From a virus (lineage: Duplodnaviria; Caudoviricetes), in IMG/VR virus record IMGVR_UViG_3300002461_000269, positions 1-58,562 of that record: DNA of 58,562 nucleotides; one strand, written 5' to 3'. Position numbers and translations under genes: made by a program. The notes below the pieces were generated by a model. The model was not told the origin of the DNA. It was given only the letters and a program-made list of their open reading frames with translations, and did not search any database. Positions 4,403 to 20,703 of this stretch are shown here, piece by piece (the stretch's first letter is position 1; every line of letters begins with the position of its first letter).

Positions 4403-5124
4403 GCTTTGTTCTCGCTGGCCTGCTGCAAGGCGTTGGTCAGGGCATTCAGAAGCAGGGCGCCGAAAAGGCGGCGGCCGAGCAGGCACAACGCGATAACGAC
4501 TTTCAGGTCGCGCTGGAGAACCTGCGCTCTGCGAACGATCGCACCAATGCCGCCAACACGGCATCGCTGAACGACGAGAACACCCGCAAGGAATACGGCT
4601 ACAAGAACGACTTCGAGGAAAAGCAACTGCCCCGCCGAATTGCAGAAGCGCGGGCCGATGGCGAGATCCGCAAGGACGTCGACAACAACGCGACTGCAAA
4701 CAACATTCGCAGCGCACAGGTTCAAGGTGCAATCACGCGGCAGAACGATGCGGCATCGCAGAAGCTCGCCAAGGATCTTGAGAGCGGAGATATTGCCGAT
4801 ACCTTTCTCGACGAGAGCGGCGAGTATGTCGGTATCACACGCACCGGGAAGCAGGTTAGAACCGGCGTGCGCGCAAACGCGGTCGACACGACGATCAAGT
4901 CGGGCAGCAGCGGCGGTTCGTCCCTGTTCCCCGAGCTTGCCGAAACCCCGGCCGTGCAGGCAGCGGCCGCCCCGGCGCCGCGTGCGCCGGCCCCCAAACC
5001 AGCAGCACAAGGCGGCAAGATCATGACGCAAGCGGACATTGACGCCACAGCGAAGGCGAGGAACCTATCGAAGCCGGCGGCCAAGCTGCTCCTTGAGGAA
5101 TTAGGCTTTAGGTTGAAGTCCTGA
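4399..5124 (+). CDS. Putative ejection protein
   Basis: N-terminal LAGLLQGVGQG followed by coiled coil, typical of podovirus internal proteins. Confidence 0.6.
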   Translation: MSFVLAGLLQGVGQGIQKQGAEKAAAEQAQRDNDFQVALENLRSANDRTNAANTASLNDENTRKEYGYKNDFEEKQLPRRIAEARADGEIRKDVDNNATANNIRSAQVQGAITRQNDAASQKLAKDLESGDIADTFLDESGEYVGITRTGKQVRTGVRANAVDTTIKSGSSGGSSLFPELAETPAVQAAAAPAPRAPAPKPAAQGGKIMTQADIDATAKARNLSKPAAKLLLEELGFRLKS

Positions 5125-5125
5125 C

Positions 5126-8100
5126 ATGGCCGGCCGTGACCTCCTTGCGGGGATTCCGCGAGACGAGCTTCTGTCTGCCAGCGAACGCTTGCGCGCCAAA
5201 GCCCCCCAAGGCCGCGACCTTCTTGAAGGTGCGAGCGAGGGTGACTTGCGCGCGGCGGAAACACGCTTGCGCGAGCGCGCGGCACGCGACGAGGAAGCCA
5301 AAGCCAATCGGGAGAGCGCAGCCGAGGCAGCGCGCCGCCCCTCTGACCCCGGCGTAGGCTCGCTCCTTGGGCTTGGCAGCGCGCGCCGCCCTGCACCCGC
5401 AGCCGGGCCGAGCAGCTTCTTTGCCAGCGAGCGACCCGTTGCAGCAGAGCGCGAGCAATTCCTTGCCGAGAACCGCACCCGCGTTCCCACCGGCGAGATT
5501 AAGGCCGACAACTACATCGAGCAGCAGGCGGCCAAGATCGGTCAGGCTGGCCTTGGCCTTGCCGCCGGCGGTGCGCGCGCCGTCATCGCGCTGAGTGACA
5601 AGCTGCAACGCAATATCGGCGTCTTGCCCGGCGACCAGGCAGCGCGCGATGTGCTCACAACCTTTGCCGAAGACTCCGAGATCACCGCAGGCCGCCGCGT
5701 TGAAGGCACCACCTCGTTTGAGGACGTGAAGGAAAACCCGCTGCTGGCTGGCAAGTTCATCTTGGATGAAGGCCCGGCATCACTGGCGATCACGCCGCTG
5801 CTGCTTAATCCCTATGGGGCTGCGGCGGTTGGCCTTGGCACCGCAGGCGGCATCGCGCAGGAGCGCGCCGTCAATGATGGCCGCACCGAAGCCACGGCAG
5901 GCGACCTTGCCGTAGCAGCGCCGTTCGCAGCCGGGAGCCTGGCGCTCGACAAGTTCGGTTTCGATCGGTTGCTCAACCCCGGTTCGGGGGCGCTTATCAC
6001 CCGCATCCTGAAAGCGGGCGGCACCGAAGGCCTGACCGAAGGTACGCAGGGCGCGCTTGAAAACCTTGGCGGCTCGCTGGGTACAGAGCGCGGCGTTGAT
6101 TTGAACGAGCTGCGCGACAGCATCACCGCCAGCGCTCTTGTTGGCACCGGCGCAGGCGCAGGATTCCGCGGCGGCTCCGAAGCCGTTGACGCCACCGCGA
6201 AGGCAATCACTGCACGCCGCGCTGCACGCGCCACCATCACGCCCGACGACGAGGCAAGCCCGCTCGACACTGCCGACATTGAGGCAGGCCGCGCCGCACA
6301 GATCGAGGTCGAGCTAGGCAAGCAGCAGAGCAGCAACATCGAGCTTCCCGAGGTGGGCGGCCGCGTCAACGTGCTTGTGCCAGGCTCATCGACCCCGGTT
6401 GAGGGTACCTTTGCCGGTTCGTTCTCCGATGCGGATGGCGCCGGGATCGAGGTTATTCTCTCGGACGGCCAGACCATCCGCGAATACAACGACAACATTG
6501 AAGACGCCGGTTACAAGATTACCCCGATCCAGTCGGCCGCGAGTGGAAGCGCCGCCGCTGGCCCGGCCGCGCCTACTGCCAGCCCTTCGGTTCGCACCGG
6601 ACAGCAATCAGGCGCGGCCGGATTCGATATGGGCCGCTATCAGGCACAGAACAGCCAGATCGAAAGCGGCAACCGGCCCTACATCAAAGCTGACACGTCA
6701 TCGGCAAGTGGCCTGTTCCAGTTCGTCAAGAAGACATGGATTGCCGAGGGCGGCGCATGGGGCAATGACGATAGCCAGGCGTTCGGCGGCTTGAAGCCAT
6801 CGGCCGAGGAGCAGCGCGCCCGGTTCAAGTCTTTCACTGACAAGAACGTGGCAGGCATCAAGGCGATTGGCGCACCGGTCACCGACGGCAACGTCTACCT
6901 TGCGCACTTCCTCGGGATGGGCGGCGCGCGCTCGATCCTTGGCGCTGACCCGAACACGCCAGTGGCGCAGCTGCTCAAAGACGACCAGATCACCGCGAAC
7001 AAGAGCATCCTCAAAGGCAAGACCGCCGGCGACGTCATCGCCTGGGCCGCGCGCAAGATGGGCGGCGCGCTCCCCGCGCAGGCAGGCGGCGAGAGCTTTG
7101 CCGCGCCTGATACCGAGCGCGAACCCTTCGAGTTCAGCAACCGCGACGAGCCCGAGGCCGCAGCACCGGCCCTGATTGGCAAGCCTATCCCGCTGCGCGT
7201 CGAGGACCGTCAGGAAACCGCCGTGGTTCCCGCCACCTTGCAAGAGGTGCCGGTGCGCTATGCCGTGGCCGAGCTTGCGGATCTCGTCCCGTCCAACACC
7301 CCTGACGGCGCAGTGAACCCGGCATTCCCGGCCGAGCGTCAGCCCCGCGACCGTACCCGGGCCGCCAGTCAGAACCAGGTGCGCAACATCGCCACCAACC
7401 TTTACCCGCGCCTGCTTGGCCGCGACGTGAAGGCGAGCGACGGCGCCCCGATCATTTCCGCCGATGGTGTGGTCGATAGCGGCAACGGCCGCGTGATGGC
7501 GCTATCGCAGGCCTATGCGCAGGGAGGCCAGCAGGTCGACGCCTATCGGGCAATGCTCGAAGAAGAAGGCTTCGACGTAAGCGGCATGACGCAGCCTGTC
7601 ATGGTGCGCGTGCGCGATGAAATGCCGGCCGCCGATGTGGCGCGGTTCGTGCGTGACAGCAATGCGCGCTCCACCGCCAGCATGTCCGGCGTCGAGACGG
7701 CATCCACCGATGCAGCGAGCATGGGCTCCAACCTCCTCGGGCTTTACCGCGGCGGCGACCTCGACACGTTGAACAATTCCGATTTCGTGCGCGGCTTCAT
7801 GCAGGCATTCGTGCCGGCCAGCGAAGTTGGCGACATGGTAATGAAGGACGGCCGCCCATCGGCCAACCTCTTGCGCCGCATCGAGGCCGCGCTCCTGGTG
7901 CGCGCGCTGGGCCCGCAGAGCTTTGTCGAATGGCTGGTTGATTCCCGGTCGAGCAAGATCAAGTCGATTGGCAACGCGCTCATCGAGACGTCGGGCAAGC
8001 TGGCGCAGATGCGCGAGGCAGCAGCACAGGGCATCATTGACCCGTCGGTCGATATTTCCGCCAACGTGGCCGAGGCGGTGACGCTGGTTGACCGTGCACG

Positions 8101-11100
8101 GCGCGAAGACCGCGGCGTAGCCGAGTTCGTCAATCAGGTGGATGCGTTCTCCGGTACGCTCGACCCGATCACCGAGGCCGTTTTGCGGCTGATGTACAAA
8201 GACCCGGCGTTCAAGAAGGCGCGCTCGCAGAAGGATCTGACCAACGCGCTGACCTTCTACATCGAGCAGGCCATGGTGACGGTGCCGGGCGGCGGGCTGA
8301 TTGCCTCGACAAGCAACCCGGCCTCTGATATTCTGGCGCTCGCCAATGCAAGACAAGATGACCCCACAGCGCGACCCAGCGCCAAGCCCGCAGCAGCCGA
8401 CGGACAGATCGGCAGCCTGGTCGATCCTGTCGAAGACGTTCGACCGGCTGGCACAGACAGCGGAGAGCGAGCCGGAGAAGGCGTACAGCCGGGGGCTGGC
8501 ACAGAAGGCAGCGGCGAAAGCCAAGCCGATCTAACAGATAACCGTAGCGATGCGGTTCAGCGCGAAGGTGAGGCAGAGTCGGTAGATCCAACTGCCGGTG
8601 ATGACGCCTCACCTTCATACCGCCTCGAAGACACCACAAGCGGCAAGGGCATTGCCCTGTTCGATGCGACCCCGGCGCAGCTGGCGGCGATCGAAGCGGC
8701 TGGCATTGCCAAACCTGCGAAGCGCAGCGACGGCGCGATGGTGTTCAGCAAGAAGCGCGAGGCGGCTATTCGTGCTGCGCTGGAGCTTGTCGCTGAGGCA
8801 GATGGCCCAATTCTTGATCGTGCCGAGCGCCTGCGAATGGTGCGCGAAGCTGTCAACGGCAGCGCTGATACAAGCATAGAAGGCGACTTGATTGTAGGGC
8901 CGGGCCTGCGGCTGAACTTTCAGACGGCAAGCGAAAGCGAATTGCGAAGCGCCTTGGCCAGGGTGACAGAAACGGTCACCCCTGCGGAGGATGATACCGC
9001 CAAGGCGCGCGGCGCCGCTGCACCCACCACCGCAGGCAAAGGCCTTCTCGGCCGCAACCGTGACGGCAACGAGGTGTTCGAGGACGAGCGCGGCGTGCGC
9101 TCCTACGTCGAGAACGGTATTCGCCTGACCGAGAGCGTGCAGATGCGCCCGGTTCGTGGCGAGGGCATCCGCCTATCGGTCGACGTGGCGAACCGCTGGG
9201 AATCCTACAAGACCACCGAGGAGCTTGGGCAGGAGCAGGCGCAGGAAGAAACGCGCATCGGTCGAGAATACGATTCGATGCTCAGTGATATTCGCCGGGC
9301 ACAGCAACAGCTGGACTCTTTCGGGGGCGAGCAGGATGCGACGTTCAAGAGCGGCGGCGTCAAGAGCCGTGAGCGCGTGATCGTGAAGGCCACCAACGAG
9401 GATGGCTACAACAGCGTGCGCGACATTAAGGATCTCGCCCGCGGTGCGTTCATTGTCGACAGCATGGAGCAGGCCGAGGCGCTGGCGACAGCAATCGGTG
9501 AGCGCTTCACCGTTGTGCAGGACAAGGGCTGGCAGCGCCTTGATAGCGGCTATGCCGATCACAAGCTGATTGTCGAAAGCAGCGGCATCAAGGCCGAATT
9601 GCAGATCGTTCCGTCAGTGGTGTGGAATGCCAAGAAGGCCGGTGGCGCGAACAAGCTCTATGAGGAGCAGCGCGCGCCGGGCGTCTCGGAAGAACGCTAT
9701 GCCGAGCTTGAACGTCAGCAGCAGGAAATCTATTCGGCTGCGCTTGAGGCTACCGGCTTCGCCCAATTCGCCAGTGCGGCAAAGTCTGCATCGGGGAACT
9801 CGGCTTCGGCTTCTTCGCGCGAGAGCGAAACACCTTCCTTGGTCGCAAGCCCGGGCGCTTCGGCCCAGGTCGAGTCCTCGCGCCAGACCAATGCCAGCGG
9901 GGGTGCAATCGAAAACACGGCGGCAAGCCGGAACTCTACTTCTTTGAACGTGGGTGACACTTCAACCTCCGAGGACAATGTAGGAGCAAACTCTCAAGAA
10001 AGCAATAACGCAGAGGTTAATCGTTTCGCCAACAATACCCTGTTCACTGCCGACAAGGTAGAGGCTGCGCGCGCCCGCATGAAGGACCGCATGAAGCGGC
10101 TGAATGCCGGCGTCGATCCTGAAATGCTGATCGACGGCATGGTCATCGCTGGCGCCTACATCGAGGACGGCGTGCGCAACTTTGCCGACTTCGCCAAGCA
10201 GATGCGCGCCGACTTCGGTAACGGGATCACCCCGTACCTGCTGTCCTTTTGGGAAGGTGCCCGCAACTATCCCGGGCTGAACACCGAGGGCATGACCTCG
10301 CCTGACGTGTCGCGCGCGATCAGCGAAATGATTGCAGCCGATGCGGCGCCAACTGTTGAGCAATCCTCAACGGTTCAACCCGAACCGCAGGCCGACCTAC
10401 CCGAGCTTGCCCGCGTGTTCGTGGAAGCGCTGCGCACCCGCAGCTTTGCCAGCATCACCGAGGCCCGCGCCTTTGCCAAGGAGGCAACCGGCCAGGACTT
10501 CCGCCCCGGCACGCTCGAAGCCAAGAAGCTCGACGAGGCGATCGAGGCCGCCTTGGTGTTCAACGCCCGCGCGATCGTGGCCGAGGGCGCCGCACCGCTG
10601 GCAACCTATCGCCAGCTTGTCAGCCTCTACGGCCGTCAGCCCAACCTTGGCGTTCGCACCTCCACCAGCGTGCAGGAGCAGGCCTACTCGACCCCGGCAC
10701 CGCTCGCCTATCTGGCTGCACTGCGCGCCGGTATCAGCAACAGCACCACGGTGTACGAACCCAGCGCCGGCAACGGGATGCTGCTTATCACCGCCGACCC
10801 TGCCAAGGTGACCGCGAACGAGTTGAATGCTGACCGCGTGGCGCAACTGCGTGACCTCTACCCGCAGGCGACCATCACCCAGGGCGATGCGACCGCAGCC
10901 AATCCCGACGGGCCACAGCGCGACCGCATCATTGCCAACCCGCCGTTCGGCCCGGTCAAGGACGAGCAGGGCGACACTGTGATCTTCGACTTGGGCGACG
11001 GCTACGAGGCACGCGAAATCGACCACGCCATTTCGCTGCTTTCGCTCGACATGATGAAGAACGGCGGCAAGGCTGCGCTCATTGTTGGCTCTGTCGCCAA

Positions 11101-14100
11101 GCAAACCCGCAACCGCGAGGACGCCTACAACGGCAAGGCCAAGCGCGAGTTTTACTTCCGGCTCTATTCCGAGTACAATGTGACCGAGCACTTCACCGTG
11201 AACGGCGACCTGTACAAGAAGCAGGGCGCCGCTTGGCCGGTGGACGTGATCGTGATTGAGGGCCGCGGCAAGTCTGCCTTGCCGCTCCCCGCAGTCAAAG
11301 CCCCGCGGATCTACGATTCGTGGGATGCACTGGAGAACGCCCTTGTTGAGCCCGCTCAAGTATCTGGAGAAGCTGGAAGCGCGGACGCTGGAACTGCTGG
11401 AGCAGGACAGCGACCCGCAGGCGGCAATGGCGATGCTGGACGAGGCGGCAATCGAGGGCGGGCTGACACAGGCGACGTCACCGCAGAGCAGCCCGGCGAC
11501 GTTCGCGGCGAGCCTGCTGTCGGACAACCCGATGGCGTTGGACTGGATCAGCGCGAAGCGGGACGCGGAAGCGTGGACCCTGCACCCCGACCGGTTCGAG
11601 AGCCTGGACGAGATCGTCAGCGCAATGCGCCCCAGCCCCAACTAGCAGAAGGCGAAGCCGCGCCTGCACAGGTGCGCTACTCCCCGGCGAGCGGCAGCTA
11701 CTCGCTCGACACGCTTGTGCCCTACAACATGCAGACCGCCGCGCAGAACGCGCTGGCGCGCATCGAGGCCAAGCACGGCAGCATCGACGCCTATGTGGCC
11801 GACAAGCTCGGCTTCACCCGCGAGGAAATGGGCAAGCGCCTTTCCGCCGAGGCAACCGACGCGATCGGGCTGGCGCTCGACAACATGGACCGCGTTGACC
11901 CTGCCACTGGCAAGGGCGCCGCTTTCATCATTGGTGACCAGACCGGTATCGGTAAGGGCCGCGTCGTCGCATCGGTGCTGCGCTATGCCATGAAGGAAGG
12001 CCGCACTGCGATCTTCGTTACCGAGAAGCCCAACCTCTACGCTGACATTTACCGCGACATGATGGACGTCGGTGTGAAGGAAATGCTCGGACGTGAGCCT
12101 GTCCTAGTGATGACCAACGCCGGTGAAAGCATCCCGCTAGGCGGCGGCAAGGAGCTAAAGAGCGGCGGCAGCGCGGCGCACAGCAAGCGGCTGGAGCGTG
12201 TCGCGCGCGGCGAAGAACAGTTCGACCTGCTGATGACGACATACTCGCAGATGCAGACCGTCAAGGGGCAGGTGACCCAGCGCCAGCAGGTGCTTGAGAA
12301 GCTGGCCGAGGGCGCGATCATCGTGTTCGACGAAAGCCACAACGCCGGCGGTCAGGGGCCGAACGAGCGGCGCGACAAGAAGGCCGAGAAGGGCGAGGTT
12401 GCCCCGAACCGCGCCGAGTTCGCGCGGATGCTGGCGCGCAAGGCGCAAGGCGTGATGTTCTCCAGCGCCACCTATGCCAAGCGCCCCGAGGTGATGGACC
12501 TCTACGCCCGCACTGACATGGGCCTTGCCGTGGCCGACCCGAAGGATTTGGGCGAAGCGATTGCCAACGGCGGCGTGCCATTGCAGCAGGTGCTTGCCTC
12601 TGCGCTGGCCGATGCAGGCCAGTACGTGCGCCGCGAACGGACATGGGAAGGTGTCAATTACCGCACCCCGCGCGTGCCGGTGGACGAGGCCGTCTATGGC
12701 GACGTGACCGAGATCCTACGCAGCATCCGCGAGTTTGAGGACGCCTTCATCACAGAGGTGAAAGAGGCGATCGACAAGGACGCCCGCGCCGAAGCGAAAA
12801 GCCTTTCGGCTGACGGTTCGGTTGGCGGCGCCGGCGTAAGCTCGACCAACTTCACGTCGGTGATGCACAACATCATCGAGCAGATGCTCTTGTCCCTGAA
12901 AGCGGGCCCGGCCGCCGACCGCGCGCTTGAGGCACTGCGCGCCGGCCGCAAGCCTGTCATCACCGTGGCGAACACCATGGGTTCGTTCATTCAGGAATAC
13001 GCCGACGAACGGAACATCAAGACCGGCGGCGCGATCGACCTCGACTTTGGCGCGGTGTTCGAGCGCTACCTCGACCGCACCCGGCAGTACACCGTGCGCA
13101 AGCCGTTCTCGAAGGAGAAGGGCGAGAAGAAATACATCAGCGATAGCGAGCTTGGCCCCGAGGGGCTGGCTGCATTCCGCGCCATTCAGGCGAAGATCCG
13201 CGAAACCGCATTCGGCCCGCTCCCGATTTCCCCGATCGACTTCATCGCACAGCGCTTGAAGGACGAGGGCTACACCGTGGGCGAGATTACCGGCCGCTCG
13301 CACACCATTGACTATGCGGGCGGTGCACCGACCCTGCGGCTGCGCGGCGCCAAGGAAACCGGGATTGCCGGGCGCCTGGCTGCGGTGAACGGCTTCAACT
13401 CCGGCAAGATCAACGCCATGATCTTGAACCAGTCAGGCTCGACCGGCTTGTCGATCCATGCCAGCGACCAGTTCAAGGATCAGAGCCCGCGCACGATGAT
13501 TATCGCGCAGGCCGAGCGCAACGTCGACACGCACATGCAGATGCTTGGCCGTATCCACCGTACCGGACAGGTGGTGCTTCCCGAGTATGACCAGCTTGTA
13601 GCCGAGGTGCCGGCAGAAATGCGCCCCGCCGCTGTGCTGGCAAAGAAGATGGCGAGCCTCAACGCCAACACGACGGGCGCGCGCGGTTCGGCCGTGACGT
13701 CGGACGAGATCCCCGACTTTATGAACGACTTCGGGGACGAGGTGATTGCTCGCATCATGGAGGAAGACACCGACCTCTACCGCGTGCTGGGCAAGCCGCT
13801 GGGTGAGAGCAAGAACGGCGGCTATATCCGCGAAGGCGCGGCCCGCAAGGTGACCGGCCGCCTCATGCTCCTGCCGCTGGCCGAGCAACAGGATTTCTAC
13901 GACAACTTCCTTGGTCAGTACCAATCGTACCTGGCACAGAAGGAAGCGGCTGGCGAAGCTGGGCTCGAAGCCAAGACCCTGCCGCTCGATGCGCGGATCG
14001 TGGACGCCAGCAATGTTGTGGCTGCGACCCGCGCCGGCACCCCATTTGGTGAAGCGGTGGTAATGGAGACGCTCGACGTCAAGCGGCTGGGCAAGCCTAT

Positions 14101-17100
14101 GTCGTCAGCGCAAGTGCTGGAGCGCATCAGTGAGACGATTGGCGCCAGCGTGCCAGACGGCAGCCCGGCCAGCGCGCTCGACCAGCTGCGCCGCGATGGT
14201 GAAGGCTGGATCAGCGACACCGTATCGCAGCCTGCGCTGACCGAGTTCGAGACGTACCGCCAGCAGACCGTCGACAATGCCAGCGAGAAGGCGGCGCCGG
14301 AGATTGCCGACCGCCTCAATCAGAACCGACTGGCCTTCCGCCAGCTGCTCGACATTGCCTACCCCGGGCGCGGTGTCCTGCTCTACAACGAGAACGGCGA
14401 CCCCTTGGGCGGCGTGGTCATCAACGTGGACAAGCGCGGCAAGGCCAAGAACCCTATCGCCTTGAGCACATGGCACGTCACCATTGCGACGGCCGATTCC
14501 TCGCGCCAGATCACCATTCCGCTTTCGCAGCTGCGCACCCGCAACATGCCGGAGGATGCGGGCCGGTTGATCGAAGCGACGTCGCGGATCGAGGGCTACC
14601 CTGTGCTCGAAGCCTTCGACAGTATGCAGGCCGAGGCGCGCGAGAAGCGTGTGATCTTCACCGGCAATATCCTCGCTGCCTACAAGGAGACGAACGGCAA
14701 GGGCCAGGTGGTCAACTTCGTGGGCGAGGATGGCAGCGTGCGCCCCGGCATCATGATGCGCCGCGGCTACAACCATAGCGGTGTGGTGAAGAACCGCCCC
14801 GTCGACTTCCGTATGCCCAAACAGGTGATCGAGTGGATGCGCGGCGGGCGCGAAGCCTACGGCGCCGGCGTATCGGTGGCGCTGGATGGCGGCCAGATCA
14901 AGGTGACGACAGCCGCATCGAAGCGCGGCGGCGGGGACGTGTTCCTTAACCGCGATGTGATTGCGGCGCTGGGCACGGACTTTGTGAAGACGTCGGGCGG
15001 CATGGTCGCGCGCGCACCGGAGAGCAAGGCAACCGCAGTCGTGGCCGCGCTGATGCGGACGGGCGCCAAGCTGCAAGCCAAGACCGACCTTGCCGACGCG
15101 CGCCAGCTTGTTGCCGGCAGCCAGGATGCACTGGACAGCCGCCCCGACCTATTCGACGCCCCAGCACAGCCCGAACGCACCATGACGCAGGCGCAGCGCG
15201 CCGAGCTTGAGGCACGCCAGCAGCAGGGCAAGGCGCGGCGCGGCGGGCAGCAGGGGCTTGGCGACCAAGAGGGCGGGCTGTTCAGCAGCGAGCGCGACCA
15301 GGGCAGCCTGTTCCTGCGCACCGAGAGCGGCGAGCCTATCACCGGCCAACAGGCCAGTGAGCTTGAAGCGGATCTTCGCGCGCGCCTAGATGCAATGGGC
15401 CTGCAACGGGTGAACCTTCGCGTCGGCACGCGGGCGCAGCTGGCACGGCCGGGAGCAACGCGCGGGCCGGATGGCCAATACCTCCCGTCGCTCAAGCTGA
15501 TTGCGGTGGCGAGCGATGCGGTCAATGGCAGCACGTTCACGCTGGGCCATGAGGCCGTGCACGCGCTGCGCGACCTTGGCGCGATCAGCCAGAGCGATTG
15601 GAGCTTGCTTGAGGGCGCGGCGTGGACGCGCAATCCCGAAGCGCAAGCCAGCATCAAGCGCCGCTACCCCGACCTGCGCGAGAATGCACAGCGCGAGGAA
15701 GCCGTGGCCGATCTGTTCGGGCGCTTCCAGGTCAACAGCGAGGGAACGGTGGGCGCGATTGCGCGCATCATCCGCCGCACGCTGGGGATCTTCGAGGCTA
15801 TCCGCAATGCACTGCGCGGCAAGGGCTTCACCATGGACCGCCGCGCGTTTGACGTGCTGGAGGACATTCGCACCGGCCGCACAGCGCAGGACATTGGCCG
15901 GTTCGAGACGGGCAACGCGATCAACAAGCGGAGCAATCCCAATACCCCGACGGGCGGGCCTGACCAGTTCGCGGAGAGCGAAGGCTCGCTCGACAGCCGC
16001 GCCGCCGTCGTCAGCCTGGCCGGCAGCGACCCGACGTGGAAGGGCAAGACCGCCGTAGCCTTCGACAAGTTCCGCACCACGATGCAGGACCGCTACATGC
16101 CGATGCTGCGCACCCAGCGCACGATCGAGACAATGACCGGCGAGAGCCTGCCCAATTCCATGAACCCCTACTTGGGCGAGGAATTGATGACGGGCCGCAT
16201 CGGCTCGCGTCTGGAGAAGCTGCACGAAGACATGATTGGCCCGCTGTTCGACGACATGGCGCGCGCCAAGGTGAACGTCGACGAGCTTGAAACCTTCCTC
16301 TACGCCCGGCACGCGCCGGAGCGGAACGCCAAGATGCAGGAGATTAACCCTGACCTGGCACCGGGCGAAGGCTCCGGCATGACTGACATTGAGGCGATGG
16401 CGGTGATGAACCGTGTTCGCAAGGCCGGGAAGATGGAGGACATGGAGCGGCTGGCCGCCAAGGTCGACGCCCTGCGCGATAGCGCGCTCGACTTCCGCGT
16501 CGAATCCGGTTTGATGAGCCAGAAGGCGGCTGACGAATGGCGCTCGACCTATGAATACTACGTCCCTCTGCGCGGCTTCAAGGAGATTGAGGGCGAGCTT
16601 TCCGAGGAAACGGCCGAGCGTATCAACAAGTCAGGCGGCGGGATCAACGTGCGCGGGCCGGAGAGCAAGCGCGCATTCGGGCGCCGGTCAAAGGCCGATA
16701 GCCCACTGTCCTACCTGATCTTGCAGGCAGAGGAGGCCATCGTGCGCGGGGAAACCAACCGTGTCGCGCAGCGCTTCATCGAGCTTGCCCGCGCCAATCC
16801 TGACGAGGATTTCTGGCAGGTCAACAAGGTGTCGGTCAATCGCCGGATGAACCCCGAGAGCGGTCAGGTCGAGGAGGTGGTGAGCTACAACCTCGCCGCC
16901 AAGGACAAGGATTACACCGTCGTCGCCAAGATTGACGGCAAAGAGGTGCGCGTCACCATGAACCAGGCCAACCCGGCCGCGCGCCGGCTTGCCAATTCGA
17001 TGCGCAACATCACCCAGCACCAGCTGGATTGGGTGACCAAGTACCTCGGGACGGTCAACCGCTACCTTTCGACGGTCAACACCACCCTGAACCCCGAGTT

Positions 17101-18703
17101 CATCATCACCAACGCCTTCCGCGACATGCAGACGGCAGCGATCAACTTGCAAAGCATCGACGTCCCGGGCATCGGTAAGGCGGCGGCTGGGCACTACAAG
17201 GGCGCGCTGGCCGCATCGCTCAAGGGATCGTGGGGCAAGGGCTCCGGCGAATGGAAGCAGTATTACGACGAGTTCATGCTTGCCGGTGGCCGGGTGTATT
17301 TCAACAACGTCGAGAACGTGGAGCAGATCCGCGCGCGGGTTAAGAGTTCGTTCGACATGGCGAACCTCAAGGCGGGCAACGGGGGCGAGGCACGCCTTCA
17401 CGTCAAGCGCGGGTTTATCGCTGTGCGCGATGCGATCGAGAACACCAACCAGGGGGTTGAGAACGCGGTGCGCCTTGCCGCCTATCGTGCGGCGCGCGAG
17501 GCAGGCGTTGACCAGGACAAGGCCGCGTCGATTGCCAAGAACCTGACCGTCAACTTCAACCGCCGCGGCACGTTCGGCCCGGCGCTGAATGCGGCGTACC
17601 TGTTCTACAATGCGTCGGTGCAGGGCTCGGTCACGCTGTTCCTCGCAGCCAAGCATCGCAAGGTGCAGAAGGTGCTTGCCGGAATTGCGGTTGCGGGCGC
17701 GCTCAACGAGTTCCTCAACATGATGCTGTCCGACGACGACGACGACGGCGAGAGCTTCTACGACAAGATCCCGTCCTACGAGAAATCGCGCAACATGATC
17801 GTGATGACGAGCGGCTCGACCTACATCAAGATCCCGCTGGCCTACGGGTACGGCGCGATTTGGGAGGCAGGCCGTACAGCCAGCGAGATTTATCGCCGCG
17901 GTGGCGACAAGTGGCAGGAGAGCGCGGGCAACCTTGTGACCACCATCGTCGACAGCTTCAACCCGGTGGGCGGGACGGACAACATCATCAACTTCTTTGC
18001 GCCGACGATCCTCGATCCGTTGGTCGACATTGAGTTGAACAAAGACTTCTCCGGCAAGCCGATCCTGCCGAACCAAAGCCCTTACGACGTGGAGGAGCCC
18101 GACGCGCAGCGCTATTTCGGGAGCGTGGGAACGCACTGGCGCGAGGTCACGGACTTCCTGACGAACGCGACCGGGGGCAATGTGGTCGAGCCCGGCTGGG
18201 TGGACGTGAGCCCCGAGACGCTCGAATATATGTTCGGCTTTGTGACGGGCGCGGCCGGTGGCTTTGTCGACCGCAATGCCGCTCTGCCTGACAAGGTTAT
18301 CAGGGGCGAGGTCGAGGCCAACGACGTACCGTTCGTGCGCAAGCTCATCGGCGGCGAGCCCGGCTGGCAGGACACAAGCCGGTATTACGATCGCGTGGGC
18401 GAGGTCGAGCAGGCCTACGAATACACCAAGCGCTACATCGAGGCCGAGCAGATCCCCGAGGCGCGCGCCTATGCCGAGCGCAAGGAGAAGGTGCTGACGC
18501 TGGTGCCGGCGATGAAGGAAGCGCAGAAGCTCATGCGCGAGGTCCGCAAGGAAAAGCGTACGATCGACTTCGAGTATGAAATGGGCCGGCTGGACGACAC
18601 GCAATATGAGGCTCGCCGTGAGCGCGCGAAAGAGGTAGAAGGGCGGATTGTCTCGGCGTTCAACACGCGCTGGAATGCTACCCTCTACCCCAAGGAGGAA
18701 TGA
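5126..18703 (+). CDS. Giant 4525-aa DarB-like polyvalent virion protein (SLT, ddrB-like ParB, RelA/SpoT-like NTase, N6-adenine MTase, strawberry-notch SF2 helicase, zincin-like peptidase, LPD38-like)
   Basis: SLT: IESG..SSASGLFQF, YLAHFLG (~6630-7065). ParB-like: QPRDR, DGAPII, SGNGR (~7245-8340). RelA/SpoT-like: KSRERVIVK, DLAR, SGYADHK, ELQ (~9270-9740). MTase: YSTP, EPSAGNG, NPPF (~10650-11330). Helicase: GDQTGIGKGR, DESH, SAT, QMLGRIHRTGQ (~11690-13950). Peptidase: HEAVH...EEAVA (~15550-15710). LPD38-like: YIKIPLAYGYG near the C-terminus. Confidence 0.9.
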   Translation: MAGRDLLAGIPRDELLSASERLRAKAPQGRDLLEGASEGDLRAAETRLRERAARDEEAKANRESAAEAARRPSDPGVGSLLGLGSARRPAPAAGPSSFFASERPVAAEREQFLAENRTRVPTGEIKADNYIEQQAAKIGQAGLGLAAGGARAVIALSDKLQRNIGVLPGDQAARDVLTTFAEDSEITAGRRVEGTTSFEDVKENPLLAGKFILDEGPASLAITPLLLNPYGAAAVGLGTAGGIAQERAVNDGRTEATAGDLAVAAPFAAGSLALDKFGFDRLLNPGSGALITRILKAGGTEGLTEGTQGALENLGGSLGTERGVDLNELRDSITASALVGTGAGAGFRGGSEAVDATAKAITARRAARATITPDDEASPLDTADIEAGRAAQIEVELGKQQSSNIELPEVGGRVNVLVPGSSTPVEGTFAGSFSDADGAGIEVILSDGQTIREYNDNIEDAGYKITPIQSAASGSAAAGPAAPTASPSVRTGQQSGAAGFDMGRYQAQNSQIESGNRPYIKADTSSASGLFQFVKKTWIAEGGAWGNDDSQAFGGLKPSAEEQRARFKSFTDKNVAGIKAIGAPVTDGNVYLAHFLGMGGARSILGADPNTPVAQLLKDDQITANKSILKGKTAGDVIAWAARKMGGALPAQAGGESFAAPDTEREPFEFSNRDEPEAAAPALIGKPIPLRVEDRQETAVVPATLQEVPVRYAVAELADLVPSNTPDGAVNPAFPAERQPRDRTRAASQNQVRNIATNLYPRLLGRDVKASDGAPIISADGVVDSGNGRVMALSQAYAQGGQQVDAYRAMLEEEGFDVSGMTQPVMVRVRDEMPAADVARFVRDSNARSTASMSGVETASTDAASMGSNLLGLYRGGDLDTLNNSDFVRGFMQAFVPASEVGDMVMKDGRPSANLLRRIEAALLVRALGPQSFVEWLVDSRSSKIKSIGNALIETSGKLAQMREAAAQGIIDPSVDISANVAEAVTLVDRARREDRGVAEFVNQVDAFSGTLDPITEAVLRLMYKDPAFKKARSQKDLTNALTFYIEQAMVTVPGGGLIASTSNPASDILALANARQDDPTARPSAKPAAADGQIGSLVDPVEDVRPAGTDSGERAGEGVQPGAGTEGSGESQADLTDNRSDAVQREGEAESVDPTAGDDASPSYRLEDTTSGKGIALFDATPAQLAAIEAAGIAKPAKRSDGAMVFSKKREAAIRAALELVAEADGPILDRAERLRMVREAVNGSADTSIEGDLIVGPGLRLNFQTASESELRSALARVTETVTPAEDDTAKARGAAAPTTAGKGLLGRNRDGNEVFEDERGVRSYVENGIRLTESVQMRPVRGEGIRLSVDVANRWESYKTTEELGQEQAQEETRIGREYDSMLSDIRRAQQQLDSFGGEQDATFKSGGVKSRERVIVKATNEDGYNSVRDIKDLARGAFIVDSMEQAEALATAIGERFTVVQDKGWQRLDSGYADHKLIVESSGIKAELQIVPSVVWNAKKAGGANKLYEEQRAPGVSEERYAELERQQQEIYSAALEATGFAQFASAAKSASGNSASASSRESETPSLVASPGASAQVESSRQTNASGGAIENTAASRNSTSLNVGDTSTSEDNVGANSQESNNAEVNRFANNTLFTADKVEAARARMKDRMKRLNAGVDPEMLIDGMVIAGAYIEDGVRNFADFAKQMRADFGNGITPYLLSFWEGARNYPGLNTEGMTSPDVSRAISEMIAADAAPTVEQSSTVQPEPQADLPELARVFVEALRTRSFASITEARAFAKEATGQDFRPGTLEAKKLDEAIEAALVFNARAIVAEGAAPLATYRQLVSLYGRQPNLGVRTSTSVQEQAYSTPAPLAYLAALRAGISNSTTVYEPSAGNGMLLITADPAKVTANELNADRVAQLRDLYPQATITQGDATAANPDGPQRDRIIANPPFGPVKDEQGDTVIFDLGDGYEAREIDHAISLLSLDMMKNGGKAALIVGSVAKQTRNREDAYNGKAKREFYFRLYSEYNVTEHFTVNGDLYKKQGAAWPVDVIVIEGRGKSALPLPAVKAPRIYDSWDALENALVEPAQVSGEAGSADAGTAGAGQRPAGGNGDAGRGGNRGRADTGDVTAEQPGDVRGEPAVGQPDGVGLDQREAGRGSVDPAPRPVREPGRDRQRNAPQPQLAEGEAAPAQVRYSPASGSYSLDTLVPYNMQTAAQNALARIEAKHGSIDAYVADKLGFTREEMGKRLSAEATDAIGLALDNMDRVDPATGKGAAFIIGDQTGIGKGRVVASVLRYAMKEGRTAIFVTEKPNLYADIYRDMMDVGVKEMLGREPVLVMTNAGESIPLGGGKELKSGGSAAHSKRLERVARGEEQFDLLMTTYSQMQTVKGQVTQRQQVLEKLAEGAIIVFDESHNAGGQGPNERRDKKAEKGEVAPNRAEFARMLARKAQGVMFSSATYAKRPEVMDLYARTDMGLAVADPKDLGEAIANGGVPLQQVLASALADAGQYVRRERTWEGVNYRTPRVPVDEAVYGDVTEILRSIREFEDAFITEVKEAIDKDARAEAKSLSADGSVGGAGVSSTNFTSVMHNIIEQMLLSLKAGPAADRALEALRAGRKPVITVANTMGSFIQEYADERNIKTGGAIDLDFGAVFERYLDRTRQYTVRKPFSKEKGEKKYISDSELGPEGLAAFRAIQAKIRETAFGPLPISPIDFIAQRLKDEGYTVGEITGRSHTIDYAGGAPTLRLRGAKETGIAGRLAAVNGFNSGKINAMILNQSGSTGLSIHASDQFKDQSPRTMIIAQAERNVDTHMQMLGRIHRTGQVVLPEYDQLVAEVPAEMRPAAVLAKKMASLNANTTGARGSAVTSDEIPDFMNDFGDEVIARIMEEDTDLYRVLGKPLGESKNGGYIREGAARKVTGRLMLLPLAEQQDFYDNFLGQYQSYLAQKEAAGEAGLEAKTLPLDARIVDASNVVAATRAGTPFGEAVVMETLDVKRLGKPMSSAQVLERISETIGASVPDGSPASALDQLRRDGEGWISDTVSQPALTEFETYRQQTVDNASEKAAPEIADRLNQNRLAFRQLLDIAYPGRGVLLYNENGDPLGGVVINVDKRGKAKNPIALSTWHVTIATADSSRQITIPLSQLRTRNMPEDAGRLIEATSRIEGYPVLEAFDSMQAEAREKRVIFTGNILAAYKETNGKGQVVNFVGEDGSVRPGIMMRRGYNHSGVVKNRPVDFRMPKQVIEWMRGGREAYGAGVSVALDGGQIKVTTAASKRGGGDVFLNRDVIAALGTDFVKTSGGMVARAPESKATAVVAALMRTGAKLQAKTDLADARQLVAGSQDALDSRPDLFDAPAQPERTMTQAQRAELEARQQQGKARRGGQQGLGDQEGGLFSSERDQGSLFLRTESGEPITGQQASELEADLRARLDAMGLQRVNLRVGTRAQLARPGATRGPDGQYLPSLKLIAVASDAVNGSTFTLGHEAVHALRDLGAISQSDWSLLEGAAWTRNPEAQASIKRRYPDLRENAQREEAVADLFGRFQVNSEGTVGAIARIIRRTLGIFEAIRNALRGKGFTMDRRAFDVLEDIRTGRTAQDIGRFETGNAINKRSNPNTPTGGPDQFAESEGSLDSRAAVVSLAGSDPTWKGKTAVAFDKFRTTMQDRYMPMLRTQRTIETMTGESLPNSMNPYLGEELMTGRIGSRLEKLHEDMIGPLFDDMARAKVNVDELETFLYARHAPERNAKMQEINPDLAPGEGSGMTDIEAMAVMNRVRKAGKMEDMERLAAKVDALRDSALDFRVESGLMSQKAADEWRSTYEYYVPLRGFKEIEGELSEETAERINKSGGGINVRGPESKRAFGRRSKADSPLSYLILQAEEAIVRGETNRVAQRFIELARANPDEDFWQVNKVSVNRRMNPESGQVEEVVSYNLAAKDKDYTVVAKIDGKEVRVTMNQANPAARRLANSMRNITQHQLDWVTKYLGTVNRYLSTVNTTLNPEFIITNAFRDMQTAAINLQSIDVPGIGKAAAGHYKGALAASLKGSWGKGSGEWKQYYDEFMLAGGRVYFNNVENVEQIRARVKSSFDMANLKAGNGGEARLHVKRGFIAVRDAIENTNQGVENAVRLAAYRAAREAGVDQDKAASIAKNLTVNFNRRGTFGPALNAAYLFYNASVQGSVTLFLAAKHRKVQKVLAGIAVAGALNEFLNMMLSDDDDDGESFYDKIPSYEKSRNMIVMTSGSTYIKIPLAYGYGAIWEAGRTASEIYRRGGDKWQESAGNLVTTIVDSFNPVGGTDNIINFFAPTILDPLVDIELNKDFSGKPILPNQSPYDVEEPDAQRYFGSVGTHWREVTDFLTNATGGNVVEPGWVDVSPETLEYMFGFVTGAAGGFVDRNAALPDKVIRGEVEANDVPFVRKLIGGEPGWQDTSRYYDRVGEVEQAYEYTKRYIEAEQIPEARAYAERKEKVLTLVPAMKEAQKLMREVRKEKRTIDFEYEMGRLDDTQYEARRERAKEVEGRIVSAFNTRWNATLYPKEE
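8306..8334 (+). promoter_or_regulatory. Internal sigma70-type promoter for nested gene 1
   Basis: TCGACA (8306-8311), 17 bp spacer, TATTCT (8329-8334), with an extended -10 TG. Lies 11 bp before the ATG at 8346. Confidence 0.6.
8346..8534 (+). CDS. Nested gene 1 (+1 frame, 62 aa) in linker after ParB-like domain
   Basis: MQDKMTPQ...AAWSILSKTFDRLAQTAESEPEKAYSRGLAQKAAAKAKPI*. Codons are mostly G/C-ending in this frame while the host frame is a low-complexity linker. Has its own promoter. Confidence 0.6.
   Translation: MQDKMTPQRDPAPSPQQPTDRSAAWSILSKTFDRLAQTAESEPEKAYSRGLAQKAAAKAKPI
8564..8616 (+). other. Long stem-loop inside giant gene, just downstream of nested gene 1
   Basis: GAAGGTGAGGC...GCCTCACCTTC perfect 11-bp inverted repeat enclosing an inner stem CGGTAG/CTGCCG. 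Confidence 0.6.
9730..9960 (-). CDS. Nested gene 2 (antisense, 76 aa), candidate antitoxin of the RelA/SpoT-like domain
   Basis: GGAGG RBS (9966-9970) 5 nt before GTG. Acidic protein MSPTFKEVEFRLAAVFSIAPPLALVWREDSTWAEAPG.... The host frame here is a Ser-rich antisense shadow. Has its own promoter. Confidence 0.7.
   Translation of the reverse strand: MSPTFKEVEFRLAAVFSIAPPLALVWREDSTWAEAPGLATKEGVSLSREEAEAEFPDADFAALANWAKPVASSAAE
9977..10005 (-). promoter_or_regulatory. Antisense sigma70-type promoter for nested gene 2
   Basis: Minus strand TTGCTT, 17 bp spacer, TACATT, in an AT-rich patch 6 nt before the RBS. Confidence 0.65.
11343..11645 (+). CDS. Nested gene 3 (+1 frame, ~100 aa) between MTase and helicase domains
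   Basis: GGAGA RBS at 11332 then TTG. Helical acidic protein (LKYLEKLEARTLELLEQDSDPQAAMAMLDEAA...). About 9 of 100 codons end in A/T by hand count. The host frame is a G/R/D/P-rich shadow. Confidence 0.7.
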   Translation: MLSPLKYLEKLEARTLELLEQDSDPQAAMAMLDEAAIEGGLTQATSPQSSPATFAASLLSDNPMALDWISAKRDAEAWTLHPDRFESLDEIVSAMRPSPN

Positions 18704-20425: not shown

Positions 20426-20440
20426 ATCAGTCTCCGCATT

Positions 20441-20703
20441 TGTGGGCATCGGTGCCCACATCGGGGCGCGGTGCCCACATTGGTGCCCGCACATTGGTGA
20501 GAGCGCTTGTCGCAATGTGATACAATATGGGACAAGCTCTAGCATCGCCTGCCGTCATTGTCTTGTCTGTATGGGACGGGATGCACGGCTATGATATTAA
20601 TCGGGTACGGAGCGGGTGCCCGTCGAAACCCCATAGAGAAACGGCAGAATTGCGCCATTTATTGAGGGTGCGCGCCGCGCGATGCCCACACCGATGCCCA
20701 CAC
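20441..20703. other. Probable attP site
   Basis: Arm-type repeats TGCCCACA flank both sides (20441-20494 and 20681-20703). Central imperfect inverted repeat CGGGTAC-N7-GTGCCCG at 20602-20622. Confidence 0.7.

What the first reader, a model, noticed from the sequence alone, without database searches (positions are those of the whole stretch)
11312..11645. Nested gene 3 between methylase and helicase domains
Seen: GGAGA RBS, TTG start and ~100 codons of which only about 9 end in A/T. The product is helical and acidic. A TACGAT -10 lies at 11312 but there is no good -35. Inference: a modulator (possibly a DNA mimic) of the MTase-helicase. Alternatively a +1 frameshift exit would give a shorter giant protein with a different C-terminus.
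Basis: partly seen in the sequence, partly recalled or inferred. Interest (0 to 1): 0.7.

Follow-up and report, generated by a model that had tools for sequence, protein, structure and literature searches.

The report
Real gene hidden inside giant phage gene
A small, well-folded acidic protein is encoded in a second reading frame inside the linker between the DNA-methylase and helicase parts of a giant phage protein, and the same hidden gene recurs in dozens of related phages and some plasmids, where annotation almost always misses it.

Summary
TTG 11343/11346 to TAG 11645 is a 99-100-codon +1-frame ORF inside the 4525-aa ORF 5126-18703. Nine of 99 codons end in A/T. Its GC1/2/3 (.65/.47/.91) matches the giant gene's average, while the main frame there drops to GC3 .33-.63 and reads as a G/A/R/P/D linker.

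It is not chance:
- The product has about 19 small (93-192 aa) relatives among 1.84 billion representatives.
- It folds confidently (pLDDT 90.6).
- A homologous +1-frame ORF sits at the same methylase/helicase junction in 79 of 82 related viral loci (GC 0.40-0.71).
- Starts are mostly ATG with an AAGGAG Shine-Dalgarno, often directly after a +1-frame stop.
- In 19 of 19 independent pairs, substitutions peak at the nested third position. In 56 of 56 pairs the nested protein is better conserved than the linker.
- The main frame stays open in all 69 distinct cases, against a median 0.21 expected.

This is a genuine dual-coding region. A frameshift exit is disfavoured. Function was not tested. My best guess is a partner or regulator of the methylase-helicase dyad. 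No known family or fold matches.

The parts
5126..18703 (+). Giant polyvalent-protein ORF (4525 aa), the host gene of the nested ORF
   Evidence: ORF list and translation. Pfam hits: ddrB-ParB 706-830, AAA_34 2237-2521, Helicase_C_4 2717-2880, LPD38 4212-4404.
10358..11344 (+). Methylase-like region of the giant protein, approximate bounds; NPPFG motif at 10937-10951
   Evidence: NPPFG is nearly invariant in the 67-row alignment A5. tblastn hits lie under features annotated 'N-6 DNA Methylase'. Pfam itself reported no methylase family at E <= 0.01.
11332..11337 (+). Shine-Dalgarno-like GGAGAA for the nested gene; in the main frame it encodes part of ...ALENAL...
   Evidence: Sequence. The equivalent AAGGAG(A/G)A precedes the start in most relatives.
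11343..11645 (+). Nested +1-frame gene: TTG 11343 (100 aa) or TTG 11346 (99 aa) to TAG 11643-11645. The product is an acidic five-helix protein of an unnamed family.
   Evidence: The 99%-identical database protein P0003 starts at the first TTG.
11345..11647 (+). Main-frame linker (giant residues 2074-2174) read from the same bases: 81% G/A/P/R/D/E/Q, 2% hydrophobic, GC3 .33-.63
11834..13765 (+). Strawberry-notch-type helicase core of the giant protein (AAA_34 and Helicase_C_4)
   Evidence: Pfam.

Best explanation
Window 11343/11346-11645 is a real protein-coding gene embedded in the +1 frame of the giant polyvalent-protein gene, exactly in the spacer between its adenine-methylase-like and strawberry-notch-type helicase modules. 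Ribosomes most likely start it internally on the giant gene's own late mRNA, at its own Shine-Dalgarno (GGAGAA) and TTG. The product is a free, acidic, five-helix protein of about 100 aa. The same bases, read in the main frame, give only a low-complexity tether joining methylase to helicase.

Both frames are kept open by selection, but the amino-acid sequence is constrained mainly in the nested frame. The small gene therefore looks like the older, sequence-determining reading, and the linker like its shadow.

Shown here: the gene's existence, conservation, start signals, fold confidence and dual coding. Inferred: internal initiation on the late transcript. Also inferred, at roughly 40% odds, is that the protein works together with the methylase-helicase dyad it is locked inside, as a partner, chaperone or inhibitor. 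That would make this DarB-like module a two-protein system.
For: (1) Coding signature in the window.
- 9 of 99 codons end in A/T. GC1/2/3 is .65/.47/.91 against the giant gene's .665/.474/.791.
- Codon log-odds is +41.0 for the nested frame and -39.9 for the main frame.

(2) Protein family.
- phmmer against 1.84 billion representatives gave 37 hits at E <= 1e-3. Nineteen are proteins of 93-192 aa aligning over nearly the whole query at 28-63% identity, plus one at 99%.
- One relative is a free-standing gene in a bacterial MAG.

(3) Fold.
- AlphaFold2 gave pLDDT 90.6 and pTM .83 with 19 sequences.
- The 131-aa form from relatives gave pLDDT 89.7 and pTM .82.

(4) Conservation of place and frame.
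- Of 82 viral loci retrieved through the helicase, 30 hit the family HMM directly at E < 1e-3, and 79 did after iteration.
- Every hit was in the +1 frame. Candidates were 399 (+1), 221 (+2) and 82 (main) open stretches.
- Two of the three misses, L014 and L027 (GC .36), still carry a 104- and a 93-codon +1 stretch at the same spot.
- hhalign of the window's subfamily against the 131-aa cluster gave E 8.1e-5 and probability 61%.

(5) Start signals in the 69 distinct CDS.
- Start codons: ATG 58, TTG 8, GTG 3.
- AAGGAG/AGGAG/GGAGG precedes 50 of 69 starts, against 1.7% of all ATG triplets in the same loci.
- The start directly follows a +1-frame stop in 32 of 69.

(6) Selection.
- In 19 of 19 non-reused pairs, differences at nested position 3 exceed those at positions 1 and 2 (sign test p 3.8e-6).
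- The helicase control shows the usual main-frame position-3 excess.
- Nested amino-acid identity exceeds linker identity in 56 of 56 ungapped pairs.

(7) Dual coding.
- The main frame is open in all 69, although synonymous permutation of the nested codons keeps it open with a median probability of only .21, and below .05 in 12.
- In 37 of 40 loci with GC < .55, the junction +1 stretch is the longest same-strand alternative frame.

(8) Plasmids.
- The same +1 ORF occurs in fused methylase-helicase genes of the Chroococcidiopsis and Gloeobacter plasmids (HMM E 8e-15 and 8e-14).
- +1 stretches of 121-183 codons lie at the junction in four more plasmids and in Bacteroides phage BS-TP4.
- PGAP annotates the Gloeobacter one as a CDS.
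Against: - There is no direct evidence of translation. No RNA or proteome data were available, and none of the 20 listed sequencing-run holders is on record as RNA.
- For the window alone the main frame would stay open by composition (permutation P = 1.0), so dual-coding selection is shown by the family, not by this sequence.
- The window uses TTG with a weaker GGAG core, and its +1 frame is open for 30 codons upstream, so a frameshift entry cannot be excluded for this one genome.
- The link between the window's subfamily and the most numerous 131-aa cluster rests on iterated HMMs and a moderate hhalign score (probability 61%).
- One database protein, P0030 (192 aa, on a 920-base contig), carries the methylase C-end fused in frame to the domain.
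- The functional part is pure inference. No family, fold or defence-library match exists.
- One homolog stands alone in a bacterial genome with no methylase or helicase within 10 kb. This argues that the protein can act without the giant protein in cis.
Confidence: 0.8

Rival explanations
1. The nested gene is real, but it is an autonomous counter-defence or host-takeover protein, for example an acidic DNA mimic that blocks restriction enzymes. It merely rides inside the giant gene and does not touch the methylase-helicase.
For: - The family is acidic: pI 4.23 in the window, median 4.53.
- A free-standing homolog exists in a bacterial MAG with no methylase-helicase nearby.
- The host protein class is tied to anti-restriction (Iyer 2017, PMC5512222, section 14 read).
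Against: - No sequence or fold similarity to any solved structure or viral model, which would include known DNA mimics.
- The net charge of about -8 to -10 is modest.
- The fixed position inside the dyad in 79 of 82 loci suggests linkage to it.
- The gene sits at the far end of the structural and lysis strand. By inference this is late expression, which suits a producer-cell or packaged role better than an early one.
Confidence: 0.25
2. Programmed +1 ribosomal frameshifting: ribosomes translating the giant ORF slip into the +1 frame after the methylase. The product would be a truncated methylase protein ending in this 100-aa domain, not a free small protein.
For: - In the window the +1 frame is open from 11256, 30 codons before the TTG.
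- P0030 joins the methylase C-end in frame to the domain.
Against: - In 32 of 69 distinct relatives a +1-frame stop directly precedes the start codon, and in 49 of 69 it lies within 5 codons. This leaves no room to enter the frame.
- The start is ATG in 58 of 69, with strong Shine-Dalgarno cores in 50 of 69.
- None of the 37 representative hits is a long protein carrying the domain in frame. The 18 long hits are multi-stretch matches, and the three I examined are RTX or cadherin repeat proteins.
- P0030 comes from a 920-base contig and differs from the conserved methylase end in a way that suggests indel errors.
Confidence: 0.04
3. Relic or artefact: the segment was once an in-frame domain of the giant protein, or a separate gene, and is now read out of frame after compensating indels or sequencing errors. 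The +1 ORF is no longer expressed.
For: - The nested frame has the genome's normal codon usage while the main frame does not. A recent frame change would also give this pattern.
Against: - The arrangement is ancient and stable: the same frame in 79 of 82 loci spanning GC .40-.71 and 40-55% helicase identity.
- Ongoing purifying selection acts on the nested frame.
- Start signals are conserved.
- Independent DNA contigs from other samples reproduce the window's sequence. X3 and X7 show no differences where they cover it.
Confidence: 0.03
4. Chance ORF produced by high G+C and a G/A/P/R-rich linker; not a gene.
For: - At 63% G+C, long alternative frames are common in this window: 367 open frames of 80 codons or more.
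Against: - All the evidence listed for the best explanation applies. The strongest points are the small-protein homologs, the confident folds, and the fact that the ORF is the longest alternative frame in low-GC relatives, e.g. rank 1 of 546 at GC .36.
Confidence: 0.01

Closest known systems
Lambda Rz/Rz1 spanin genes (Rz1 wholly embedded in the +1 frame of Rz); recalled from general knowledge, not from any call
   Same: A complete small gene with its own start lies inside a larger phage gene in the +1 frame. Both frames are functional, and the two products work together.
   Different: There is no sequence relation. Here the host gene is a 4525-aa multi-enzyme protein, and the overlapped host segment is only a low-complexity tether between two enzymatic domains. 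Whether the products interact is untested.
Hepatitis B virus polymerase spacer overlapping preS; overprinting in viruses generally (recalled; the Pavesi review PMC8227390 was seen only as a search listing and the start of its abstract)
   Same: A disordered tether between two enzymatic domains of a large protein is encoded by the same bases as another protein in a different frame.
   Different: A different realm of viruses with no homology. Here the criteria usually applied point to the embedded small gene as the older frame and the tether as the derived one: genome-like codon usage, an ordered fold and free-standing homologs.
Phage P1 DarB, the archetypal methylase-helicase anti-restriction virion protein (Iyer et al. 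2017, PMC5512222, section 14 read)
   Same: An adenine-methylase module is fused to an SF2/SWI2-SNF2-type helicase within a large phage protein of the polyvalent class.
   Different: P1 darB has no counterpart of the nested gene. Its longest same-strand alternative stretches (177 and 128 codons) have no coding signature, no Shine-Dalgarno and no HMM hit. The window's helicase is of the strawberry-notch type.
P1 iddB, a gene annotated inside ddrB on the opposite strand (record AF234172)
   Same: An annotated gene lies inside a gene of the P1 dar (defence against restriction) set, so there is a precedent for hidden genes in this functional neighbourhood.
   Different: It is antisense rather than same-strand, in a different host gene, with no similarity tested. 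Its function is listed as unknown.
Ocr / ArdA-type DNA-mimic anti-restriction proteins (recalled)
   Same: Small, acidic, largely helical proteins of mobile elements.
   Different: Searches of solved structures by sequence profile and by fold found no match. The charge is much less extreme, and no functional test was done.

Membership tests
Embedded (fully overlapping) same-strand phage genes, Rz/Rz1-like architecture | The whole CDS lies inside a larger CDS, on the same strand, in another frame | tested here: met
   11343-11645 lies inside 5126-18703 at frame offset +1. The same offset holds in all 79 loci with a hit.
Embedded (fully overlapping) same-strand phage genes, Rz/Rz1-like architecture | Own translation start signals | tested here: met
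   GGAGAA plus TTG in the window. Among 69 distinct relatives: ATG 58, TTG 8, GTG 3, with strong SD cores in 50 against a 1.7% background.
Embedded (fully overlapping) same-strand phage genes, Rz/Rz1-like architecture | Both frames maintained by selection | tested here: met
   Nested frame: 19 of 19 pairs show a position-3 excess, and 56 of 56 pairs show higher amino-acid identity than the linker. Main frame: open in 69 of 69 against a median expectation of .21. For the window alone the main-frame test is uninformative (P = 1.0).
Embedded (fully overlapping) same-strand phage genes, Rz/Rz1-like architecture | Both products made in infected cells | not testable with these tools
   No RNA holder is listed and no proteomics is available.
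Programmed ribosomal frameshift product | The alternative frame is open upstream of the domain, with no independent start needed and a conserved shift site | tested here: not met
   A +1-frame stop directly precedes the start in 32 of 69 and lies within 5 codons in 49 of 69. No conserved slippery motif was looked for beyond inspecting the start contexts.
DNA-mimic anti-restriction proteins (Ocr, ArdA and similar) | Sequence or fold similarity to a known mimic | tested here: not met
   No PDB hit by profile at E <= 1 other than coiled-coil noise. No Foldseek hit at E <= 1e-3 in PDB or BFVD for either model.
DNA-mimic anti-restriction proteins (Ocr, ArdA and similar) | Strongly acidic surface imitating DNA; blocks restriction enzymes | tested here: inconclusive
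   pI 4.23, family median 4.53. The surface pattern was not analysed and activity is not testable here.
Named domain families of polyvalent proteins (Pfam LPD families and others) | Significant match to a curated model | tested here: not met
   Across 24 queries the nested product and its relatives gave no match at E <= 0.01, except LutB_C at E .0018 for the fused fragment P0030 and DUF3418 at E 1.2e-22 for the HrpA-like half of P0004, both outside the family domain. Pfam covered 13 of these relatives, PHROGs and NCBIfam 7 each, PADLOC 6. The weaker rows were phrog_21001 at E .018, LmuA at E .057 and Trigger_C at E .079.
The unnamed ~100-aa family found here (P0006, P0008, P0016, P0042 ...) | Full-length similarity with the shared motifs: N-terminal L..R...LL helix, DP..AM, A.E.GL, NP.A.D, FE.LDEI.SA.RP | tested here: met
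   phmmer E 6.7e-16 to 6e-4 over residues ~3-97 at 28-50% identity. Alignments A1 and A2.

The most novel reading that the evidence does not exclude
The methylase-helicase 'dyad' of this clade of polyvalent (DarB-like) proteins is really a three-part system. An older small gene was trapped when the methylase and helicase reading frames were joined by reading straight across it in another frame. Its acidic five-helix product would then be an obligatory partner of the giant protein, as a chaperone or packaging factor, or as an inhibitor that keeps the methylase-helicase silent in the producer cell. If so, a whole class of mobile-element anti-restriction proteins has had a hidden, unannotated subunit.
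Probability: 0.35. Interest if true: 0.85.

Novelty: new variant of a known kind. Interest (0 to 1): 0.75.

Why it matters
- **Missed by annotation.** Gene callers do not call a 100-130-codon gene that lies wholly inside a 2000-5000-codon ORF. The family is therefore nearly absent from protein databases: about 19 small hits among 1.84 billion representatives. Yet it is present in 79 of the 82 related viral loci I examined. Only 1 of the 7 annotated public records that carry a junction ORF lists it.
- **Bears on how these proteins work.** The gene sits in the middle of the most widespread enzymatic pairing of polyvalent, virion- or conjugation-delivered anti-restriction proteins. The survey that defined this protein class does not contain the words overlapping, alternative frame or frameshift in its main text (PMC5512222). 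A hidden third component would change how these proteins are studied, expressed and assayed.
- **A clean natural case of dual coding.** A folded protein dictates the sequence, and a large enzyme uses the shadow frame as a tether. It is testable with mutations that are synonymous in one frame only.

Tried and rejected
Searches that found nothing:
- Direct searches for the nested protein's relatives in viral contigs, genome contigs and metagenome contigs. Relatives were reached only through the helicase and through one named MAG protein.
- tblastn of nested proteins against GenBank phages and plasmids. The only hit was the query's own record.
- blastn of the junction against phages.
- Family and fold identification in Pfam, PHROGs, NCBIfam, PADLOC, a PDB sequence profile, Foldseek PDB (two models), Foldseek BFVD and the ESM Atlas. 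All were blank.
- A sample of 401 genomes of the class of the MAG that carries the free-standing homolog. Only that MAG itself matched: not found in those searched.

Tests without a result:
- Complex prediction of the nested protein against giant residues 1745-2640 gave no verdict (score 0.29, mark 0.32). This is no evidence either way.
- No RNA holder was listed among the 20 sequencing runs, so nothing can be said about expression.

Weak observation from laid contigs:
- X3 and X7 reproduce the window where they cover it.
- The low-depth variant contigs of X8 and X11 carry 16 single-base differences inside the nested CDS, by my count 5, 4 and 7 at nested positions 1, 2 and 3.
- Two three-base replacements, 11418-11420 and 11532-11534, coincide exactly with nested codons 25 and 63.
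- Depth is 3.5-5.7, so this is suggestive only and I do not lean on it.

Ideas tested and not supported:
- An internal promoter at 11312, and RNA structure around the start (z -0.93).
- The nested gene as a ramp for coupled re-initiation of a separate helicase. Only the Gloeobacter plasmid has an ATGA overlap. Fourteen of the 69 distinct loci have a main-frame start codon within about 47 nt after the nested stop, and none overlaps it.
- P1 darB as a carrier of the same gene.
- 'Linker length tracks presence of the nested gene'. This holds for Vogesella (33 codons, against 110-189 where the ORF exists), but the gapped alignments for Yersinia and Xanthomonas do not allow a clean figure, so I do not claim it generally.

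Rows and loci I set aside:
- The 18 long hits, dropped as repeat noise. Only 3 of the 18 were examined.
- L064, which has no upstream sequence, and L073, which is partial.
- L009, which is the same contig as L001. Identical CDS were collapsed from 79 to 69.

Selection rule: for each locus I took the first start codon with an SD-like core of 4 nt or more. 'Has an SD' is therefore true by construction; the strong-core count (50 of 69) is not.

Supplementary files of papers were closed. Those of PMC5512222 could list architectures relevant to this clade, and I did not see them.
Full report
**Setting.** The window is a 58.6-kb virus record. It carries an integrase, portal-like, major-head and lysis genes. 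ORF 5126-18703 encodes a 4525-aa polyvalent protein:
- Pfam finds ddrB-ParB, a strawberry-notch-type helicase (AAA_34, Helicase_C_4) and LPD38.
- An NPPFG adenine-methylase motif lies just upstream of the finding.
- tblastn hits to this part lie under features annotated as N-6 DNA methylase.

The finding sits in the spacer between the methylase-like part and the helicase.

**The observation.**
- GGAGAA lies at 11332-11337, tandem TTG codons at 11343 and 11346, and TAG at 11643-11645.
- From 11346 there are 99 codons, 9 ending in A/T. GC1/2/3 is .646/.475/.909, close to the giant gene's overall .665/.474/.791.
- Over the same bases the main frame has GC1 .87-.97 and GC3 .33-.63. The switch is sharp, at about 11330 and again at the nested stop.
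- The main frame there reads G21 A15 R12 P11 D9 of 101 residues, with 2% hydrophobic residues.
- With the giant gene's own codon usage, the nested frame scores +41.0 log2 units and the main frame -39.9. Ordinary main-frame windows average +50.2 (sd 17.4), and +1-frame windows average -109 (sd 35).
- A scan of all six frames along the giant ORF finds only three places where another frame beats the main one. This one is by far the strongest.
- TACGAT is present at 11312, but no promoter-like pair is found there.

**Is it a protein?**
- phmmer against 1.84 billion representatives returned 37 hits at E <= 1e-3.
- Nineteen of them are proteins of 93-192 aa that align across nearly the whole query. 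One is 99% identical and the rest are 28-63% identical. Shared motifs are visible in alignment A1.
- The other 18 are long proteins matched in many short stretches. The three I checked are RTX or cadherin repeat proteins, and I treat all 18 as noise.
- No curated family matches.
- AlphaFold2 with only 19 sequences gives a compact five-helix model, pLDDT 90.6 and pTM .83.
- The protein is acidic, pI 4.23.
- Foldseek finds nothing at E <= 1e-3 in the PDB or BFVD. A PDB sequence profile and the ESM Atlas are also blank.

- A single-protein search gave 2 loci. A three-sequence alignment found 203 relatives, of which the best 80 were returned. That makes 82 loci; L009 repeats the contig of L001.
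- The main frame runs open from the helicase back through the retrieved upstream flank in every locus, or to the giant ORF's start in four.
- An HMM of A1, searched against all plus-strand open stretches of 40 aa or more within 1.5 kb upstream of the helicase, hit 30 loci at E < 1e-3. After three rounds it hit 79.
- All hits were in the +1 frame. Candidates were 399 (+1), 221 (+2) and 82 (main).
- The misses are L064 (no upstream sequence) and L014 and L027. The latter two still have +1 stretches of 104 and 93 codons at the very same place. In L027 (GC .36) that stretch ranks first of 546 alternative stretches.
- Because iteration can drift, I compared the window's subfamily (A1) with the most numerous 131-aa cluster (A6) by hhalign. 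The result was E 8.1e-5 and probability 61% over 71 columns.
- The 131-aa form also folds confidently, pLDDT 89.7, with a matching run of core helices.

**Start signals, and the frameshift alternative.** Among 69 distinct nested CDS:
- The start is ATG in 58, TTG in 8 and GTG in 3.
- AAGGAG, AGGAG or GGAGG lies 4-18 nt upstream in 50, against 1.7% of all ATG triplets in the same loci.
- The start codon directly follows a +1-frame stop in 32, and lies within five codons of one in 49.

The Shine-Dalgarno is written in main-frame codons for a conserved ...LKEKL... at the end of the methylase. In the window this is ...ALENAL..., with the weaker GGAGAA. This pattern fits independent internal initiation and leaves no room for a frameshift entry in most relatives. 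In the window itself the +1 frame is open for 30 codons upstream, so that genome alone cannot exclude a frameshift.

**Selection.**
- In 19 of 19 pairs that reuse no sequence (60-95% nucleotide identity), differences at nested position 3 (main-frame position 1) outnumber those at nested positions 1 and 2 (sign test p 3.8e-6).
- In the adjacent helicase, the same loci show the ordinary excess at main-frame position 3.
- In 56 of 56 ungapped pairs the nested protein is more conserved than the main-frame linker, for example 86% against 70% for L001/L002.
- The main frame is open across the nested gene in all 69. Permuting synonymous nested codons keeps it open with a median probability of .21, and below .05 in 12 loci.
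- In 37 of 40 loci with GC < .55, the junction +1 stretch is the longest same-strand alternative frame of the whole ~7-kb locus.

Both frames are therefore maintained, with the amino-acid sequence constrained chiefly in the nested frame. For the window alone the main-frame test is uninformative (P = 1.0), because its nested codons almost never end in T.

**Beyond phages.** tblastn with the junction protein found 3 phage records and 272 plasmid records. I looked at 11 annotated records:
- The Chroococcidiopsis and Gloeobacter plasmids carry a +1 ORF that hits the HMM (E 8e-15 and 8e-14).
- The Acaryochloris, Synechococcus NIES-970, Leptolyngbya and Thalassospira plasmids and Bacteroides phage BS-TP4 have +1 stretches of 121-183 codons at the junction. 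Each is the longest alternative frame of its locus, but the HMM hit is weak or absent.
- In Persicobacter the methylase and helicase are separate genes with no small gene.
- The Vogesella, Yersinia and Xanthomonas plasmids (27-35% identity) show no junction ORF.
- Only the Gloeobacter record annotates the nested ORF, as a hypothetical protein. It starts the helicase CDS at an ATGA overlap although the main frame is open.
- P1 darB, the archetype, has no counterpart.
- One homolog (P0042) is a free-standing gene in an Altererythrobacter MAG with no methylase or helicase within 10 kb. Among 401 sampled genomes of that class, only this MAG matched.

**Interpretation.** The existence of an independently started, selected, foldable gene in the +1 frame is well supported. 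I put it at about 0.9 for the family and somewhat lower for expression in this particular phage.

The nested frame has genome-like codon usage, an ordered fold and a free-standing relative. The main frame is a low-complexity shadow. By the criteria usually applied to overprinting, the small gene would be the older frame, and the methylase-helicase fusion would read across it. That ordering is an inference. It needs a rooted survey.

How the protein acts is not shown. Its locked position inside the dyad suggests a partner of the giant protein, such as a chaperone, packaging aid or inhibitor. So does its place at the end of the structural-lysis strand (late expression is inferred). The analogy with embedded partner genes such as Rz1 (recalled) points the same way. 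I give this about 0.4. An autonomous acidic counter-defence protein is the main functional rival, at about 0.25. The complex prediction gave no verdict and counts for nothing.

**Literature.**
- Full-text searches for polyvalent protein + overlapping gene, strawberry notch + methyltransferase + phage + overlapping, and DarB + overlapping + nested gene + phage found nothing describing this gene.
- The defining survey of polyvalent proteins (PMC5512222) has no occurrence of overlapping, alternative frame or frameshift in its main text. Its section on the methylase-helicase dyad, which I read in full, treats the pair as a direct fusion.
- Subscription journals and supplements were not searchable.

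**Earlier notes of this scan.** These include the idea of three overprinted partner genes. My frame scan agrees on the three places. I tested only the third in depth.

Noticed in passing
window 8366-8640 (+1 frame) and the GC3 dip at 8276-8876: This is the second place where a non-main frame beats the main frame in codon log-odds (-0.0 against -19.5). Main-frame GC3 falls to .56-.65.
   Followed up: partly
window 9806-9986, antisense: This is the third such place: an antisense frame scores +5.5 against -10.9 for the main frame. P1 annotates an antisense gene, iddB, inside ddrB.
   Followed up: partly
L084 (Gloeobacter morelensis plasmid pGMOR1) 1120-5103: RefSeq annotates the nested ORF (2135-2584) as a hypothetical protein and starts the helicase CDS at 2581 (ATGA overlap). 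Yet the main frame is open from 1120, and the methylase part has no listed CDS. The fused gene seems to have been split by the annotation.
   Followed up: partly
L003 9730-10282 (Altererythrobacter MAG): The free-standing homolog of the nested protein overlaps the end of a 72-aa ORF. It lies beside an IS-like transposase ORF and ordinary chromosomal genes (my reading of the translations, not tested against any library). No methylase-helicase lies within 10 kb.
   Followed up: partly
protein P0004 (175 aa, 752-base contig): The N-terminal half matches the HrpA-associated DUF3418 (E 1.2e-22). The C-terminal half is 63% identical to the nested protein. The join falls at a shared KYLEK, so this is probably a chimeric assembly.
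   Followed up: no
protein P0030 (192 aa, 920-base contig): The methylase C-end is joined in frame to the nested-family domain. The methylase part deviates from the conserved sequence in a way that suggests indel errors, but it is the one record that would fit an in-frame or frameshift fusion.
   Followed up: no
related loci, end of the nested gene (e.g. L067 2950-2965): Many nested proteins end in ...S-L-D or H-L-E directly before the stop. The same bases encode a conserved main-frame S-G-L-T-D-R-R-G leading into the helicase. Which frame imposes this motif is unknown.
   Followed up: no
window 11386-11389 in contigs of run X8: A variant contig (depth 3.5) has one base inserted behind 11386 and one deleted at 11389. 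This compensated shift restores both frames within three bases. Depth is low, so it may be an error.
   Followed up: no
window 11151-11179: The only sigma-70-like site in 10900-11900 is TTTACT-17-TACAAT, 9 of 12 matches, about 165 nt upstream of the nested start. It is a consensus match only.
   Followed up: no
window 19145-20545 (-): An integrase (phrog_1, E 6.5e-52) lies just downstream of the giant gene on the other strand, so the phage is probably temperate.
   Followed up: no
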